IMG/VR virus record: IMGVR_UViG_2698536443_000004
Source: a virus
Lineage: Duplodnaviria; Heunggongvirae; Uroviricota; Caudoviricetes
Strand: one strand, 5' to 3'
DNA: 5,912 nt
This document shows, piece after piece, positions 1 through 5,912 of the stretch (position 1 is the first letter of the stretch; every line of letters starts with the position of its first letter). A program made the position numbers.

Positions 1-3000
1 GTTCATGGCTGAACTCCTGAAAATGGCTGTGAAAATATCGCCCGCGAAATGCCAGGCTGATTAGGAAAACAGGAAATGGGGTTAGTGAATGCTTTTGCTT
101 GATCTCAGTTTCAGCATTAATATCCATTTTTTATAAGCGTCGACGGCTTCACGAAACATCTTTTCATCGCCAATAAAAGTGGCGATAGTGAATTTAGTCT
201 GGATAGCCATAAGTGTTTGATCCATTCTTTGGGACTCCTGGCTGATTAAGTATGTCGATAAGGCGTTTCCATCCGTCACGTAATTTACGGGTGATTCGTT
301 CAAGTAAAGATTCGGAAGGGCAGCCAGCAACAGGCCACCCTGCAATGGCATATTGCATGGTGTGCTCCTTATTTATACATAACGAAAAACGCCTCGAGTG
401 AAGCGTTATTGGTATGCGGTAAAGCCGCACTCAGGCGGCCTTGATAGTCATATCATCTGAATCAAATATTCCTGATGTATCGATATCGGTAATTCTTATT
501 CCTTCGCTACCATCCATTGAAGGCCATCCTTCCTGACCATTTCCATCATTCCAGTCGAACTCACACACAACACCATATGCATTTAAGTCGCTTGAAATTG
601 CTATAAGCAGAGCATGTTGCGCCAGCATGATTAATACAGCATTTAATACAGAGCCGTGTTTATTGAGTCGGTATTCAGAGTCTGACCAGAAATTATTAAT
701 CTGGTGAAGTTTTTCCTCTGTCATTACGTCATGGTCGATTTCAATTTCTATTGATGCTTTCCAGTCGTAATCAATGATGTATTTTTTGATGTTTGACATC
801 TGTTCATATCCTCACAGATAAAAAATCGCCCTCACATTGGAGGGCAAAGAAGATTTCCAATAATCAGAACAAGTCGGCTCCTGTTTAGTTACGAGCGACA
901 TTGCTCCGTGTATTCACTCGTTGGAATGAATACACAGTGCTTATTCGTACTAATAAAATACCCAATTTTCTGTTTCTTGGTTGTGTCCAAAGTTATATTC
1001 AATATCTGGTGTTGATGTATCAATATTCTTCATACCATCAACAAGAGTTGATACAACAGCCAAATCTTGTTTGATTCTCATTAAATGGTATTTCTTCCGG
1101 CGCAATAAACTTTCAATGGCAAGTTTCTTCGTTGGGAATGCAAAAGATCTTTCTGCATTTTTTGCTACTTTCTTAATTGCATATCTATTTCTCCTTTGTT
1201 TCCATTCCTGTAACCACTGATTTGGTGCTGGTTTAAAATTAACAATCCAATGCGCAGGAACCAACCATGCATAATGCTCTGTCTGATGAAAAGCTATATA
1301 TTGAAGTGCGAATATTTTTATCCCATCTTCTTCAACTGTCGCCTGGAATCTCCAGAAAACAGGCATTCCATCATGTTCAGTTTCTGATTCAGGAAAAGGT
1401 ACGCTCCATGATTTTGTCATATCTCACCTCAAATAAGTGGTTTGCTGCCTAATTTCATTTTCTGGCGACCAACACAAGTCACCTCGCCGTCAGTTGTTTT
1501 GATTTCCGGTAGCCTGCCGCGTAAATGGCTACGTTTGGAAGACATACACCAGTTTCTGGTTGCTTATGTCCAAACTCATTCGCGTACACAATGGCCGCTC
1601 GCTCCAGATTGCGTCTGTATTCTTTCTGTTGCCAGATCACGTCCTGTGCCATGAACTTAATTGGCTTAGCGTCTTCTATGCGCTCAGGCGTTTCGTGAGT
1701 ACCTTTAGCCTGAATCTGCGCTCTGCTTAGAGTAGGGCGGTGTAATACTTCTGAACTTATTGCTTCTTCGCGGGCCAGTACGCCGTTAGCTAATGCCTTT
1801 GCCTTTAAACGCTCACGACGACGAGAACGTGAATTGCCTTTGAACTGAGTTCTGCGTGTCATATAGACCTCCTGATGAACTTTGGTGGTGTGGTAGGTGG
1901 GAGACCCATTTCGACCTGTTTCGGCCTACTTCAATTCGGCAATAGTCCCGCAGGCCTCGCCGCTTTACGTGCGACATATTCCCGTCCATGAACCCTTCAC
2001 CACACCCCAAAGTTCACTTTGGTTATTGCGCTTTGTCAGCGCCGTAGATTCATATTCGAATCGTTGTATATTCACCGCCCTGGTGAGTAATGCGTCCTGC
2101 TGACGACGATAATAATGAACCAATAGTTCGACATTATCAAGAACTATTGGTACGAATTTTGGTGATTTATTAACTCTACGAAGTATGATTCTGATATATA
2201 AGGAAATTTATTTTTGAAAATGTGGCTGATGAAGGTTATGCGGCAGGGATCATAACTGCATGGTTTAGCGAGTTACATCAATAAATACAATTGGTTATGT
2301 TTTTTAGGTGGGCGAACGTGAGGCAAAGAAAACCCGGCGCTGAGGCCGGGCTAGATTTTAAAGTATTTATCTTTTAGAGATGTAGATGTAAAACTTTTCG
2401 CCTTTGAAAATTTTTTGTCATCAGAAGGGCTTATGAACTCATCTTTTTTGTAGGGAACCGCTAATGCTGCATCACGTCTGCGAGGCAGCTTGCTTACTTC
2501 CTCGCGCTTTTTCATGATCAGTTATCCTTTAATAACCTATACAGTTTTGTAGGGGTACATCCTGAGGATATTGTTAAGTTCGTAGCACGCCTTTTCCGCC
2601 CATCATCGTATAAACGAAAACCAGTAGTAGACGAATTTTCTGCGTCAAAAACTATAGACAGTATAGCGTCCCCAGACTTTTTTTGCCATTCGCATGTGCC
2701 GTTAGTTGGTTTCGTCATCTGTAGACGCCAGTCAAGAACGCCATCACTTATAGCTGAGAGATCGTTTAGTACATCTAGTACGGATTGATATCTTTCATTT
2801 GGATCTACATGAATGCATTTGTTCACTATTGTTATTAATTTTTTATGTATATGGGGAGGATACTCTTTTAATGGATAGCAGCCATTAATTATCGACTCTC
2901 TGAGTTGTTCAATCGTGCTAAATGCAGATCTTTCTCTTTCAAAATTATCATGTCCAACACACATTCTATATATGGTTAATCCTGCCTGATATATGTCATA

Positions 3001-5912
3001 TGTGAAATTATAATCATTTGTTGATAAAGAAAAATATTCCGGTGGCACATGAAAATGATATCCAAACTCAGGCGCAGCTCTCGATTCCTCATTGACTAAC
3101 TGAGATAATCCAAAGTCAGATAGCATGGCCTCATTTCTGTTTGATATCATAATGTTATTAGGTTTTATATCAAAATGCATAAGACCTTTTGAGTGTATAT
3201 GATAAAGTCCACTTAAAAATTGAATGGAATACCGTATTATCTCCCTGCTTGTAAGATTATTTTTTTTCATTAATTGGTTTAGCGAACCATTATGATAAAA
3301 TGGCATGGCTATATAGATATTGCTCTCACATTGAGCAGCATACTGAACTTGCACAATATTTGGATGTGCATGTTTATAGAGAAGCCTTGCTTCATTAAAG
3401 TAGTCGTCGTGGTTAGTGTTTTCTTTTTTTTCTATTTCTTTAATCACCAAGTCATGAGCTAGGTGTCTGTCATGAGCCAGATATACTTTTGAAAAACAAC
3501 CCTGTTCTTCTAGATCACTAATCCATTCGAATTCTACATCAGCTCTTTTGTATGGAGTTAGCATCCCCTTACCTCCGCAGATAGTGCAGCCAAAACAGCT
3601 TCATTTGTTTCAGTTGTAAAACCAGAATTATCGATTCCATTTATATTGCGGTGTGACTTCAATATTTCTTTATACTCGATCTCTGTTAGGTTCAATGATG
3701 ATTTCATGCCAGATTTTCTAATAGTGTAATATTTTCTTACATCACTGCTTGAAAATGCTTCTTGAATAACAGCTTCTATATAAAGGCGGTCAATGCTAAG
3801 ATTATCAGAGTTTGATTCAGTAACGCGTATGGCAGCTAATTCAACATTATATAAATTAAGAATGTCGAGGATGTTATTTCTCACATACTTTAATTTTTCT
3901 GGTGTGTCTAAGGTCGAAGGTATTTTAATAACATCAACACATTTGAGTGCAGACTCATTAGTGCAATATACAACAAAAGATGTAACTTTGGGCGCCGCTC
4001 TAACACCTAGTATTCTCATTTTTTATATCCTATTTTAGAATCAGGCCGCATCTCTGCGACCATCCATCATCCAAACGTCTCTTCACTCATCCGAAGAAGC
4101 AGCAATCCGGGTCAGCACGCACAAGCTCAAGCGCATCAGTCAGCGAAAGTTCAGTACTGTACTGATGCCATTTCATATCCTTCCGCATCCAATAGATTTT
4201 CCATCTATCCAGAGAACGTATGTACTTGATTCTTGCTGATGGCAGGATGTTTGTTTCACCTGGATTGCCCTGCCACACGGGGCGCTGTTCGCCGATATCT
4301 ATCGTTTGGTCATTGATGCTATAAACAATATCCAGTTCATTGCGGATATGTTCAGGCGGCCTTATGCTTTCAATGAATTGGTGAACTTCTTTTTTTACTG
4401 CTTGATATTCAAGGTCATTGAACGCCATCTATCCTCCTTACCCAAACGTCTCTTCAGGCCACTGGTTACCAGCTATGTGACGATGAAGTCACGAACTTTT
4501 CAGCCACTCCCTTGCCTCGATGTCATCCAGATGGCGAGATTGCTTCAGAATACCAGCTACATACTCCACCTTTGCTACTTGATGATAAGGCAACGTTATA
4601 GGCCTGTGATCCTGGTTAATGCTTGTAAATTGGTATTCTCCATCTCTGTCATAGCCAAGAACCTTAATCATGTTGTGTCCTTCAACGGTTCTGACAAACA
4701 CCTCATCACCCGGGAATACTTTGGTGTTAGGCTCAATGAGTACATATTCTCCTGATTTTATTCTGGGCCACATGCTGTCTCCTTTCACACGAAGACCAAA
4801 GGCATCTGGATCATCGCTATAAATTTTGAGCCACCCATCGCGCTCTTCGGTCATCTCGATGGCACCATCAACACCAAGAATTGCCTCACCAACCACGCGC
4901 ACTAACCCTTTTTTTAATTTGCCAACAAATGAAAGAGTATCTTCATCATTCGCTCCATTTAACGAAGTGCCGTGCTGAAGCCAAACAACATCAACGTTTA
5001 GAAATTTCGCAAGCGCATTCATTTTTTCCTGACGCGGTAAAGACTCAGCATTAAACCATTTGCTAACGCCTTTGGACGAAAGAGAAAGGGCACGGGCTAT
5101 AGCCATTCCCCTACCATGTTCATCAAGACCAGCTTCTTTACAGGCTTGCGCTAGCCGCTGGGCGAATTCTTTGCGCACTTTTTCATTCTGAACCATGAGT
5201 ACGATACTAAAGCACTTGCAAAAACTTTCAGTTCAACCATAATACGTACTGAAAGTACGAAAAAGGATATTCCTATGCAAAATCTTGATGAGCCGATTAA
5301 AGGTGTCGGCATCCCTGAAGTTGCGAAGGCTTGTGGAGTTAGCGAAAGGGCTGTCTATAAGTGGCTCAAAAACGGCTTCCTCCCTAAGACTGAGTTTTTT
5401 GGGAAAACTAAATACGCATCAAAAATCGAAGAGATTTCTGGTGGCAAATATCAAGCAAGCGAAATGCTTGAAATAAGCAAAAAGAACCTTCTGGCTGCAT
5501 AAGTAACACCGCTATTTTCACAATGGGCATTCGTCCTACGTCGCTGACAAAGCGAGTCCCAATATATCTGACCAACTAAGGCCATATGCGTTTCCACGCA
5601 TACCTTTCAACTAGCTATTCACTATTGGAAATCTTAAGAAATGGAACAAACAAGTTACAGCAAACTATCACAGCGAGAAATTGATCGCGCTGAAACTGAT
5701 TTACTCATCAACCTGTCAACGCTTACCCAGCGCGGTCTGGCAAAGATGATTGGCTGTCATGAATCGAAGATAAGCAGAACAGACTGGAGGTTTATAGCTT
5801 CGGTCTTGTGTGCTTTTGGCATGGCATCAGACTGAACCGCCCCGGGAATCCTGGAGACTAAACTTCCTGAGAAAGAGGTAAACAGGATGACTAAAAATAC
5901 TCGTTTTTCCCC

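What the first reader, a model, noticed from the sequence alone, without database searches (positions are those of the whole stretch)
2518..4019. Sharp compositional discontinuity: kinase/153-aa block about 23-28% GC versus about 55% in N and 40-50% in cI
Hand counts on sampled 60-bp lines show a very AT-rich core (lines 3181 and 3841) against a GC-richer backbone (lines 1681 and 4801). This supports recent horizontal acquisition from a low-GC source and suggests H-NS silencing or counter-silencing could affect expression.
Basis: seen in the sequence. Interest (0 to 1): 0.45.

Follow-up and report, generated by a model that had tools for sequence, protein, structure and literature searches.

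The report
AT-rich kinase defence cassette in 933W
The AT-rich stretch is real but weaker than claimed (35% GC, not 23-28%), and it is the already described lysogen-expressed Stk kinase cassette that Shiga-toxin phage 933W carries beside its repressor gene, a mobile gene block that is AT-rich in every host examined.

Summary
The window is the immunity region of Stx phage 933W (99.9% identical). The dip is real but overstated. Positions 2518-4019 are 35.3% GC, against 42-44% in the flanks, 49% in N, 45% in cI and 49.4% for the whole phage. L0083 and stk are the two lowest-GC genes of 78 and the richest in E. coli-rare codons. The right edge is sharp (about 4020-4065); the left edge is gradual.

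The block is an exchangeable cassette, L0083-stk-L0081 plus the tM terminator (about 2329-4065). It sits in lambda's rexAB position, between cI and the presumed OL/pL region. Related phages with near-identical flanks carry other cargo there.

Horizontal acquisition is supported; a specific low-GC donor is not. The L0083-kinase pair was adjacent in 39 of 39 loci across several phyla, and lower in GC than its flanks in 36 of 36.

H-NS silencing is unsupported. Published work reports these genes expressed in lysogens from pRM, and assigns the three genes inferred by order to be stk, L0083 and L0084 to no H-NS modulon. H-NS binding itself could not be tested.

Side result: L0083 has a RuvC fold with an invariant Arg at the catalytic Asp position, and is always coupled to the kinase.

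The parts
2329..2352 (-). tM intrinsic terminator; left boundary element of the cassette
   Evidence: A G+C-rich hairpin followed by a T run lies directly after the L0081 stop codon. It is annotated tM in 933W. It is shared both with lambdoid backbones that lack the cassette (L005, L007: homology ends at 2350) and with cassette copies in Enterobacter and Erwinia (homology starts at 2323 and 2329).
2351..2515 (-). L0081: 54-aa basic, Ser/Thr-rich protein; last gene of the cassette
   Evidence: Its start codon lies 2 nt after the stk stop. It has 16 Lys/Arg and 11 Ser/Thr/Tyr. It matches phrog_4063 only. It is conserved with the cassette in the Enterobacter, Erwinia and Proteus copies. GC is 37.6%.
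2518..3564 (-). stk: Hanks-type Ser/Thr/Tyr protein kinase (348 aa)
   Evidence: Pfam Pkinase scores 158.8 bits against a cut-off of 31.7. The motifs LVIK39-42, HFDIKPNN130-137, DFG150-152 and PPE174-176 are present. PADLOC PD-T4-6 matches at 1e-37 and mad6 at 7e-50. The gene is annotated stk in 933W. GC is 35.4% and GC3 28.4%; codons 1-266 are 33.3% GC and codons 267-348 are 42.2%.
3558..4019 (-). L0083: 153-aa RuvC-fold protein, translationally coupled to stk
   Evidence: Its stop codon overlaps the stk start codon (ATGCTAA, 7 nt), with a Shine-Dalgarno-like GAGGTAAGGGG upstream. The AlphaFold model has pLDDT 91 and pTM 0.86. The best PDB match is T. thermophilus RuvC, TM 0.82, E 2e-9. R7 is invariant where RuvC has the catalytic Asp. 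It is the lowest-GC gene of 933W: 34.8%, GC3 26.6%.
4020..4065 (-). L0083 leader; right end of the exchangeable cassette
   Evidence: Homology to phages without stk resumes at 4045 (L006) and 4066 (L005). The same leader precedes the cassette behind a different repressor in E. coli S1-KEN-03-A. GC steps from about 35% to 47% here.
4071..4085 (-). Relic of the 3' end of a lambda-type cI gene (copy 1); right boundary sequence
   Evidence: An exact 15-nt direct repeat has its second copy at 4442-4456. On the coding strand it reads TGAAGAGACGTTTGG, and the only match in the lambda locus lies at the 3' end of the annotated lambda cI gene. That these bases encode lambda cI's last residues (..EETFG) is from my knowledge of lambda cI.
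4087..4428 (-). L0084: DUF3024 protein (113 aa). It is a separate small module between cI and the cassette and is not part of the AT-rich block.
   Evidence: Pfam DUF3024 matches at 2e-31 and the PADLOC candidate PDC-S43 at 5e-42. GC is 44.7%. It is present with cI in phages that lack stk (L005, L006), and absent from Lambda_2E9 and S1-KEN-03-A.
4442..4456 (-). Relic of the 3' end of a lambda-type cI gene (copy 2), just downstream of the 933W cI stop codon
   Evidence: The stretch CAGTGGCCTGAAGAGACGTTTGG is shared with the 3' end of lambda cI. The junction with Lambda_2E9 (4461) falls next to it.
4489..5196 (-). cI repressor; first gene of the pRM transcript that continues into the cassette
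   Evidence: Annotated in 933W. GC is 45.2%. Cotranscription of the kinase with cI is stated in PMC3564112 and PMC3430580.
5189..5259 (.). oR3-oR1 operators with pM (pRM) and pR promoters
   Evidence: Annotated in both 933W records.
2095..2328 (-). Presumed OL/pL operator-promoter region between nutL and tM; the backbone to the left of the cassette
   Evidence: This is inferred from position: nutL is annotated at 2028-2094 and tM at 2329-2350, and lambda has the same order. The region is conserved at 93% in L005 and 73% in L007. It is itself 30-35% GC at 2101-2300.

Best explanation
The AT-rich block is a self-contained, horizontally exchanged accessory operon: L0083 (RuvC-fold protein), stk (protein kinase), L0081 (small basic protein) and the terminator tM, about window 2329-4065. 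It occupies the slot between the repressor gene and the presumed OL/pL region that lambda fills with rexA-rexB.

Shown here:
- Its ends coincide with mosaic junctions.
- Related phages hold different cargo in the same slot.
- The same unit occurs in other mobile elements of other Enterobacterales.
- The L0083-kinase pair is conserved as adjacent genes across phyla.
- The pair is lower in GC than its surroundings wherever it was found.

From the literature: the genes are read from pRM together with cI in lysogens, and Stk stays quiet until phage HK97 infects. It is then activated and aborts the infection.

Inferred:
- The low GC and the rare-codon load reflect life as a module that circulates among phages and plasmids, which are AT-biased relative to their hosts. 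It never stays in one genome long enough to drift to that genome's composition. This is not a recent import from one low-GC donor.
- Exchange happens by recombination at two short conserved boundary sequences: the tM terminator on the left and a relic of a lambda-type cI 3' end on the right.
- L0083 is a non-catalytic or altered RuvC-like partner that senses or regulates, and L0081 is a further component.
- H-NS may bind this DNA but does not silence it in the lysogen.
For: Identity: the window is 99.9% identical to 933W positions 7587-13418, with stk, L0083, L0084, cI, tM and nutL annotated.

Composition: see the observation check.

Cassette borders: homology breaks fall at 2350/4066 (Stx2_EH0337), 2358/4045 (SH2026Stx1) and 2350/4461 (Lambda_2E9). 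Other cargo fills the slot, at 41.0%, 44.1% and 41.1% GC. Lambda rexAB is 40.9%.

Mobility:
- Copy at 79% nucleotide identity beside Mu/P2-like tail genes in E. lignolyticus
- Copy at 75% in Erwinia aphidicola
- Copy at 88% on a K. variicola plasmid, with the kinase cut by IS1
- Copy at 97.4% behind a different repressor in E. coli S1-KEN-03-A
- All of the first three copies are 36-38% GC in contexts of 48-60%.

Conserved pair: in 39 of 39 loci from Proteobacteria, Bacteroidota, Firmicutes and Acidobacteria, a kinase 35-57% identical to Stk starts within about 90 nt downstream of the L0083 homologue or overlaps its end. Identities of the two proteins correlate (r = 0.64).

Family-wide AT bias: the pair is lower in GC than its flanks in 36 of 36 loci, by a mean of 6.7 points (Wilcoxon p = 3e-11). 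Its GC tracks the flanks with slope 0.63 and r = 0.89.

Boundary relic.

Expression and function, from papers: PMC3564112, PMC3681748, PMC3430580, PMC3342100, PMC4651098.

Defence-family matches: PD-T4-6 and PDC-S43. The same two calls are reported as unique to one O157:H7 strain (ERC101) in preprint 10.64898/2026.07.23.740414.
Against: - The original Friedman and Tyler papers were not available, so the pRM cotranscription and the HK97 exclusion rest on how other papers cite them.
- Flanks of up to 6 kb on each side are a rough stand-in for host composition and may themselves be mobile DNA.
- The AT bias could still be incomplete drift from an old low-GC origin. In hosts of 27-36% GC (Clostridium, Psychromonas, Flavobacterium, Photobacterium) the module is close to its flanks.
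- Riley et al. report L0084 and L0083 transcripts far above cI. This hints at a promoter other than pRM, so 'one pRM operon' may be too simple.
- No experiment here tests L0083 or L0081, or H-NS binding.
Confidence: 0.8

Rival explanations
1. One reading: the block was imported recently from a low-GC organism, has not yet drifted to E. coli composition, and is silenced by H-NS or needs counter-silencing.
For: - GC of 35% over 1.3-1.5 kb is within the range commonly reported for H-NS-bound DNA in E. coli (established knowledge).
- Codon usage is the most atypical in the phage.
- The cassette is nearly invariant within E. coli: 99% or more in 196 of 226 matching records. That fits recent spread.
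- Lower-GC Enterobacterales (Proteus, Providencia, Xenorhabdus) carry homologues.
Against: - Even in Proteus penneri the pair is 33.5% GC against 40.3% in its flanks.
- The closest copies outside E. coli are only 75-88% identical, and they sit in hosts of 50-60% GC while keeping 36-38% GC themselves.
- The genes are reported as expressed in lysogens.
- By gene-order inference they are not in the published H-NS modulon.
- The H-NS motif is at chance level.
Confidence: 0.12
2. The AT-richness is kept by selection on expression. Rare codons and AT-rich mRNA hold down the level of a potentially toxic abortive-infection kinase, or tie its translation to the phage's own ileZ/argN/argO tRNAs.
For: - stk has 17 AUA and 13 AGA/AGG codons, the highest rare-codon share in the phage.
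- 933W encodes ileZ, argN and argO tRNAs.
- The AT bias persists across 20-25% nucleotide divergence among enterobacterial copies and across phyla.
- Stk is described as nearly inactive in uninfected cells (PMC3681748).
Against: - No expression data were analysed here.
- The bias also affects codon positions 1 and 2.
- The bias also appears in unrelated cargo such as L0079, which fits a general bias of mobile DNA.
- This is compatible with the main explanation rather than a true alternative to it.
Confidence: 0.2
3. The low GC is a by-product of amino-acid composition (proteins rich in Lys, Asn, Ile) with no evolutionary signal.
For: GC1 and GC2 of stk (44.4%, 33.5%) and L0083 (41.6%, 36.4%) are lower than, or close to, those of cI (58.9%, 36.4%).
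Against: The largest deficit is at synonymous third positions. GC3 is 28.4% and 26.6%, against 40.3% in cI and a phage mean of 48.4%. Synonymous codon usage is also among the most deviant in the phage.
Confidence: 0.03
4. The dip is a chance fluctuation exaggerated by picking four extreme lines.
For: The four sampled lines are extremes, and a 23.3% line also occurs outside the block.
Against: Segmentation log-likelihood ratio 18.7 against a null maximum of 8.3. Mann-Whitney p = 5e-5. It is the lowest 1.5-kb stretch of the 61.7-kb phage.
Confidence: 0.01

Closest known systems
Phage 933W stk region (Stk abortive-infection kinase; Tyler & Friedman 2004, Friedman et al. 2011)
   Same: This is the same DNA: 99.9% identity, with the same genes L0081, stk, L0083, L0084 and cI. 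Citing papers state that the kinase is cotranscribed with cI and aborts HK97 infection.
   Different: Nothing differs in the block itself. The window's source differs from the reference phage only by an IS629 end inserted in cII at 5832/5833.
Lambda rexA-rexB, and the slot between cI and OL/pL
   Same: The position and logic are the same. It is accessory, lysogen-expressed exclusion cargo between the repressor gene and the leftward operator, ending in a terminator. It is lower in GC than cI and N: rexAB is 40.9% against 45% and 50%.
   Different: The proteins are unrelated. The 933W cargo is distinctly more AT-rich (35.7%) than rexAB or the other cargo seen in this slot (41-44%).
PD-T4-6 (single-gene Ser/Thr kinase defence system in PADLOC)
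   Same: The Stk kinase domain matches PD-T4-6 profiles at E = 1e-37. A preprint's PADLOC run reports PD-T4-6 together with PDC-S43 as unique to one O157:H7 strain.
   Different: PD-T4-6 is catalogued as one gene. Here the kinase always follows a RuvC-fold gene (39 of 39 loci), and that gene has no PADLOC model. Whether the PD-T4-6 reference gene has such a neighbour was not checked.
RuvC Holliday-junction resolvase
   Same: L0083 shares the full-length fold: TM 0.82 to T. thermophilus RuvC and TM 0.72 to E. coli RuvC. The N-terminal strand motif ILGxx is also shared.
   Different: - Sequence similarity is below Pfam's threshold (14.2 against 22.2 bits).
- The catalytic Asp7 position is an Arg in 33 of 33 family members.
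- The Glu66 position aligns with a conserved Arg/Lys (a low-confidence alignment).
- The gene is tied to a kinase, not to ruvAB.
Phage 'morons' and AT-biased accessory genes of mobile elements
   Same: It is a discrete extra gene block with its own terminator. It is expressed from the prophage, has lower GC than its neighbours, and is absent from otherwise near-identical phages.
   Different: It appears to rely on the repressor's promoter rather than one of its own. That is the literature's statement; no promoter was mapped here.
H-NS xenogeneic silencing of AT-rich islands
   Same: The AT content is comparable to typical H-NS targets (plus established knowledge).
   Different: The genes are reported as expressed in lysogens, by gene-order inference are not in the EHEC H-NS modulon, and show no enrichment of the high-affinity motif.

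Membership tests
Hanks-type (eukaryotic-like) protein kinase, Pfam PF00069 | Profile match above the curated threshold | tested here: met
   158.8 bits against a cut-off of 31.7, covering residues 21-260.
Hanks-type (eukaryotic-like) protein kinase, Pfam PF00069 | Catalytic motifs: ATP-binding Lys, HxDxKxxN catalytic loop, DFG, APE-like | tested here: met
   LVIK at 39-42, HFDIKPNN at 130-137, DFG at 150-152, PPE at 174-176.
933W Stk abortive-infection system | Sequence identity with the characterised stk locus | tested here: met
   99.9-100% identity to 933W positions 9937-11672.
933W Stk abortive-infection system | Excludes HK97 by kinase activation; expressed from pRM in lysogens | not testable with these tools
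   Known only through citing papers (PMC3681748, PMC3564112, PMC3430580). The original papers are not held.
PD-T4-6 (PADLOC) | Match to the system's profile HMM | tested here: met
   E = 1e-37, residues 20-273 on profile PDLC04042. The hit is generic to kinase domains: mad6, MkoA and PglW also match.
RuvC resolvase family (PF02075) | RNase H-like RuvC fold | tested here: met
   Model pLDDT 91. Foldseek gives TM 0.82 and E 2e-9 to 4ld0, and the top 14 hits are all RuvC chains.
RuvC resolvase family (PF02075) | Profile match above the curated threshold | tested here: not met
   14.2 bits against a cut-off of 22.2, N-terminal 65 residues only. There were no PDB sequence hits to RuvC.
RuvC resolvase family (PF02075) | Acidic catalytic tetrad (E. 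coli D7, E66, D138, D141) | tested here: not met
   R7 replaces D7 in 33 of 33 members. The E66 position aligns with R65 (31 Arg, 2 Lys). E68 and E140 are conserved and might substitute for some acidic positions. The hhalign probability is low, so only the D7 position is firm.
Lambdoid cI-to-OL accessory slot (rex-like cargo) | Lies between the repressor gene and OL/pL, on the repressor's strand, ending in a terminator | tested here: met
   The gene order is cI, L0084, L0083, stk, L0081, tM, presumed OL/pL, nutL, N. The terminator was confirmed. Lambda has the same layout.
Lambdoid cI-to-OL accessory slot (rex-like cargo) | Replaced by unrelated cargo in phages with homologous flanks | tested here: met
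   L005, L006 and L007 have flanks at 73-98% identity and hold 1-kb cargo of different sequence.
H-NS-silenced xenogeneic DNA | AT-rich relative to the host over hundreds of bases | tested here: met
   33.6% GC over 2766-4040, against about 50% for E. coli (established knowledge).
H-NS-silenced xenogeneic DNA | H-NS occupancy, and derepression when hns is removed | not testable with these tools
   No ChIP data for a 933W-type lysogen were found. Indirect evidence: Z1444-Z1446 are in the flagella modulon, not the H-NS modulon, of PMC9263587 (Z-number mapping inferred from gene order).
H-NS-silenced xenogeneic DNA | Genes silent under standard growth | tested here: not met
   From the literature read here: the L0083 and L0084 proteins were reported by 2D-PAGE and their transcripts measured in lysogens (PMC3342100), and stk is expressed in stable lysogeny (PMC3430580).
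H-NS-silenced xenogeneic DNA | Enrichment of the high-affinity motif TCGATAAATT | tested here: not met
   10 matches at up to 2 mismatches, against 11.1 expected. Three of them fall in the block.

The most novel reading that the evidence does not exclude
L0083 is not a stray 'resolvase'. It is the obligate partner of Stk in a widespread two- or three-gene defence module (RuvC-fold protein, kinase, sometimes a small basic protein) that current catalogues list, if at all, as a lone kinase. In this clade the catalytic Asp of RuvC is an invariant Arg. This suggests a nuclease fold turned into a sensor or regulator, for example one that recognises branched phage DNA or a phage protein and licenses the kinase to trigger abortive infection.
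Probability: 0.3. Interest if true: 0.55.

Novelty: already known. Interest (0 to 1): 0.27.

Why it matters
For the finding as given, little is new. It re-identifies a characterised accessory region of a well-studied Shiga-toxin phage, and shows the usual compositional signature of mobile accessory genes.

The useful corrections are three:
- The contrast is 35% against 42-49% GC, not 25% against 55%.
- Low GC here should not be read as evidence of a particular donor.
- H-NS silencing runs against published reports that these genes are expressed in lysogens.

Two by-products may be worth a specialist's time:
- The kinase has an invariably adjacent partner with a remodelled RuvC fold, conserved across phyla. 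This could change how the Stk and PD-T4-6 type of defence is defined and studied.
- Relics of a lambda-type cI 3' end mark the joints where cargo is swapped in this slot. They give a concrete example of how immunity-region cargo moves between lambdoid phages.

Tried and rejected
- The primary papers on Stk are not held (PubMed 21985444 and 15150234; PMC524894, PMC415781). Statements about pRM cotranscription and HK97 exclusion therefore rest on citing papers.
- Literature searches found no H-NS ChIP data covering a 933W-type immunity region. No paper was found describing a RuvC-like plus kinase pair.
- The EDL933 chromosome record NC_002655.2 is not in the collection. The mapping Z1444-Z1446 = stk, L0083, L0084 is inferred from gene order next to Z1447 = CI_933W.
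- The H-NS high-affinity motif scan came out at chance level.
- The promoter scan over 1800-5400 came out at chance level: 10 sites against 10.1 expected. No internal promoter is claimed. The 'putative promoter/operators' annotated inside L0083 in AP004402 are depositor pattern matches in AT-rich DNA and were disregarded.
- A profile search of L0083 against PDB sequences gave only chance hits. hhalign against E. coli RuvC had very low probability and is used only for the N-terminal strand, where the fold match supports it.
- NCBIfam gave nothing specific for any of the five proteins.
- A pooled 'GC3 of the pair' column is out of frame for one of the two genes and was ignored.
- Chance fluctuation and amino-acid composition were considered as explanations and rejected (see the rival explanations).

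Full report
WHAT THE WINDOW IS

A megablast search against phage records shows that window 1-5832 is 99.9% identical to Shiga-toxin phage 933W, positions 7587-13418. It is equally close to many 933W-type Stx phages.

The 933W annotation gives the following on the minus strand:
- kil and cIII
- ea10
- L0079 (950-1420)
- N (1479-1862)
- nutL (2028-2094)
- terminator tM (2329-2350)
- L0081 (2351-2515)
- stk (2518-3564)
- L0083 (3558-4019)
- L0084 (4087-4428)
- cI (4489-5196)

The oR operators with pM and pR follow at 5189-5259. cro, nutR and cII lie on the plus strand.

The last 80 bases of the window (5833-5912) are not cII. They are the left end of IS629.

CHECKING THE OBSERVATION

They are extremes, though.

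Over full lengths the values are:
- block 2518-4019: 35.3% GC
- stk: 35.4%
- L0083: 34.8%
- N: 49.2%
- cI: 45.2%
- left flank 41.9%, right flank 44.2%

The contrast is about 35% against 42-49%, not 23-28% against 55%.

It is still highly non-random.
- Lines inside versus outside the block differ with Mann-Whitney p = 5e-5.
- A maximum-likelihood search for one deviant segment returns 2766-4040 (33.6% against 43.0%). Its log-likelihood ratio is 18.7, and 40 shuffles never exceeded 8.3.

I also placed the block in the complete 933W genome (61,670 nt, 49.4% GC, 78 coding genes).
- L0083 and stk are the lowest and second-lowest genes in GC. L0079 is third and L0081 fourth.
- Only 0.08% of 1502-nt windows are as low as this block. 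The only windows at or below 38% lie in this region.

- stk and L0083 have the highest share of codons that are rare in E. coli: 13.5% and 11.8%. The phage mean is 7.35% (sd 2.5), and a small K-12 gene sample gives 2.2%.
- They are among the four genes most distant from the rest of the phage in synonymous codon usage.
- The deficit is largest at third codon positions (GC3 28.4% and 26.6%, against 40.3% in cI). It is therefore not just amino-acid composition.

'Sharp' applies to the right edge only. GC rises from about 35% to 47-48% across 4019-4065. On the left the change is gradual. The last 82 codons of stk are 42% GC, against 33% for the kinase domain.

WHAT THE BLOCK IS

The decisive evidence is comparative.

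Only 42 phage records contain the stretch L0081-stk-L0083, and 39 of them match at 99-100%. By contrast, 151 records match L0084-cI. They include a large set of Stx2a phages at 98.2% identity that lack stk.

Local alignments place the breaks precisely:
- Against Stx2_EH0337, homology runs up to window 2350 and resumes at 4066.
- Against SH2026Stx1, the breaks are at 2358 and 4045.
- Against Lambda_2E9, the breaks are at 2350 and 4461.

Each of these phages holds about 1 kb of unrelated DNA between the breaks. The AT-rich block is therefore an exchangeable cassette, about 2329/2351 to 4065. It sits between the repressor gene and the presumed leftward operator, which is the position of rexA-rexB in lambda.

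The alternative cargos are also somewhat lower in GC than their flanks of about 45%. They measure 41.0%, 44.1% and 41.1%, and lambda rexAB is 40.9%. The 933W cassette is the most extreme at 35.7%.

The cassette is tightly packed.
- The L0083 stop codon overlaps the stk start codon (ATGCTAA).
- The L0081 start codon follows the stk stop codon by two bases.
- The tM hairpin begins at the L0081 stop codon.

The cassette occurs in 225 of 5,426 complete E. coli genomes.

HOW IT MOVES

The same unit turns up elsewhere:
- Next to Mu/P2-like tail genes of a prophage in Enterobacter lignolyticus: 79% nucleotide identity over window 2323-4026.
- Next to phage tail genes in Erwinia aphidicola: 75% over 2329-4019, with a DUF3024 gene upstream.
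- On a Klebsiella variicola plasmid, with the kinase cut by IS1: 88%.
- In another E. coli lambdoid prophage, directly behind a different repressor and with no L0084: 97.4%.

Both ends carry short conserved sequences. The left end is the tM terminator. It is shared by cassette copies in other genera and by lambdoid backbones that lack the cassette.

The right end is an exact 15-nt direct repeat, CCAAACGTCTCTTCA, at 4071-4085. The same repeat occurs again at 4442-4456, so the two copies flank L0084. On the coding strand it reads TGAAGAGACGTTTGG. The only match in the lambda locus lies at the 3' end of the annotated lambda cI gene. That these bases encode lambda cI's last residues (..EETFG) is from my knowledge of that protein.

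Relics of a lambda-type cI 3' end thus mark the joints at 4066 and 4461. The same relic and the same L0083 leader precede the cassette in the other E. coli prophage. I infer that recombination at these boundary sequences moves cargo in and out of the slot.

WHERE THE LOW GC COMES FROM

L0083 homologues are common in Enterobacterales. A scan of one genome per species found 39 loci. They span Gamma-, Beta- and Alphaproteobacteria, Bacteroidota, Firmicutes and Acidobacteria.

In all 39 loci, a kinase 35-57% identical to Stk starts within about 90 nt downstream of the L0083 homologue or overlaps its end. The identities of the two proteins correlate (r = 0.64).

In all 36 loci with more than 4 kb of flank, the pair is lower in GC than its flanks.
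- The mean difference is 6.7 points and the largest is 20 (Wilcoxon p = 3e-11).
- The pair's GC tracks the flank GC with slope 0.63 and r = 0.89.

The close enterobacterial copies keep 36-38% GC inside contexts of 48-60%. Even in Proteus penneri the pair is 33.5% against 40.3%.

Being AT-richer than its surroundings is thus a constant property of this mobile module. It fits the general, well-known AT bias of phages, plasmids and other mobile DNA relative to their hosts. It does not point to a particular donor, and I found no near-identical copy in a genome of matching composition.

An ancient low-GC origin cannot be excluded. In hosts of 27-36% GC the pair is close to its flanks.

WHAT THE GENES DO

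Stk is a canonical Hanks-type kinase.
- Pfam Pkinase scores 158.8 bits, and the Lys, HxDxKxxN, DFG and PPE motifs are all present.
- PADLOC profiles for the defence kinase PD-T4-6 match at 1e-37. L0084 (DUF3024) matches the candidate system PDC-S43 at 5e-42.
- A recent preprint's PADLOC run reports PD-T4-6 and PDC-S43 as unique to one O157:H7 strain.

The original papers were not available. Papers that cite them state the following:
- The 933W kinase is cotranscribed with cI from PRM (PMC3564112).
- It is expressed only in stable lysogeny (PMC3430580).
- It has little activity until HK97 infects. It is then activated and aborts the infection (PMC3681748).

L0083 is annotated 'RuvC-like resolvase' in RefSeq.
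- An AlphaFold model built from 31 homologues is confident: pLDDT 91, pTM 0.86.
- It superposes on T. thermophilus RuvC at TM 0.82.
- The Pfam RuvC match is below threshold.
- The strand that carries RuvC's first catalytic Asp reads ILGVR instead of ILGID. This Arg is present in 33 of 33 family members from all phyla.
- R65 (31 Arg, 2 Lys), E68, E82, E87 and E140 are also conserved.

I infer that L0083 is not a standard resolvase. It is more likely a remodelled RuvC fold acting as sensor or regulator of the kinase. This is untested.

THE H-NS IDEA

DNA of 33-35% GC over more than a kilobase is within the range of typical H-NS targets (established knowledge). Binding is therefore physically plausible and could not be tested here.

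What could be checked speaks against silencing.
- Riley et al. (PMC3342100) reported two prophage proteins by 2D-PAGE in phi24B lysogens, as matches to '933W p23' and 'p24', which are L0083 and L0084. The MASCOT scores (39 and 55) were not flagged as significant.
- Their qPCR showed expression restricted to stable lysogens. [quoted passage not shown]
- An RNA-seq study lists stk, cI and res among genes unchanged on induction (PMC4651098).
- In an independent-component analysis of EHEC transcriptomes that included an hns mutant, Z1447 is labelled CI_933W. The three preceding genes Z1444-Z1446 are, by gene order, stk, L0083 and L0084. They fall in the 'flagella and chemotaxis' component, not the 'H-NS regulons' component (PMC9263587). 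This is weak evidence and may reflect strain differences.
- The published H-NS high-affinity motif is not enriched: 10 matches against 11.1 expected.

VERDICT

The block is the known Stk accessory cassette of 933W in the rex-like slot. However, its AT-richness is a family-wide trait of a mobile module, not the mark of a recent low-GC donor. Silencing by H-NS runs against published reports that the genes are expressed in lysogens.

As a finding it is already known and of modest interest.

The most novel reading left open is that L0083 and Stk, perhaps with L0081, form a widespread multi-gene defence module. Its RuvC-like component would have lost the canonical active site.

Noticed in passing
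window 5833-5912: The last 80 bases are the left end of IS629: the terminal repeat and the start of OrfA (MTKNTRFSP). They are 97.5% identical to the IS629 copy in Stx2a_F422. The element is inserted in cII after about 64 codons, so the source prophage has a disrupted cII and differs here from reference 933W.
   Followed up: partly
window 941-1427 (L0079, 950-1420, minus strand): This is a second AT-rich exchangeable cassette. L0079 is 35.7% GC (GC3 26.8%) and ranks third-lowest of 78 genes in 933W. Homology to three related phages stops at 940 and resumes at 1428. It lies in the position of lambda ral/sieB. Its function is unknown (phrog_1636 only; no Pfam, PADLOC or NCBIfam match).
   Followed up: partly
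window 4071-4085 and 4442-4456: An exact 15-nt direct repeat flanks L0084. On the coding strand it matches the 3' end of the lambda cI gene, so relics of a lambda-type repressor gene mark the joints where cargo is exchanged. The mosaic junctions at 4066 and 4461 fall on them.
   Followed up: yes
window 3558-4019 (L0083) and loci L010-L048: The RuvC-fold protein L0083 has an Arg at the position of RuvC's catalytic Asp7 in 33 of 33 homologues across phyla. It is followed by an Stk-like kinase in 39 of 39 loci. No PADLOC model covers it.
   Followed up: partly
window 4087-4428 (L0084): The DUF3024 protein matches the PADLOC candidate defence system PDC-S43 (5e-42). It travels partly independently of the kinase cassette. 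It is present with other cargo in L005 and L006, is upstream of the cassette in the Erwinia and Proteus copies, and is absent in S1-KEN-03-A. Riley et al. report its transcript five orders of magnitude above cI in lysogens, which hints at a promoter of its own.
   Followed up: no
window 2518-3564 (stk); 933W 21120-21371: stk carries 17 AUA and 13 AGA/AGG codons. stxA2 has 15 and 8. 933W encodes ileZ, argN and argO tRNAs just upstream of stx2. A link between these tRNAs and translation of the cassette was not examined.
   Followed up: no
window 2518-2765 (stk codons 267-348): The C-terminal 82 codons of stk are 42.2% GC, against 33.3% for the kinase domain. This is also the part that aligns worst, or not at all, in distant homologues. 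It may be a separately evolving specificity domain.
   Followed up: no
PMC9263587 supplementary file 3 (EDL933 genes Z1444-Z1446): The three genes left of CI_933W (Z1447) group with flagellar genes in modulon 45, while cI itself falls in other components. This may reflect strain background in the data compendium, or transcription partly independent of cI.
   Followed up: partly
L005 4996-5853 (minus strand), Stx2_EH0337: The alternative cargo in the same slot of a large group of Stx2a phages is a single 285-aa ORF of unknown function (41% GC). It was not analysed further.
   Followed up: no
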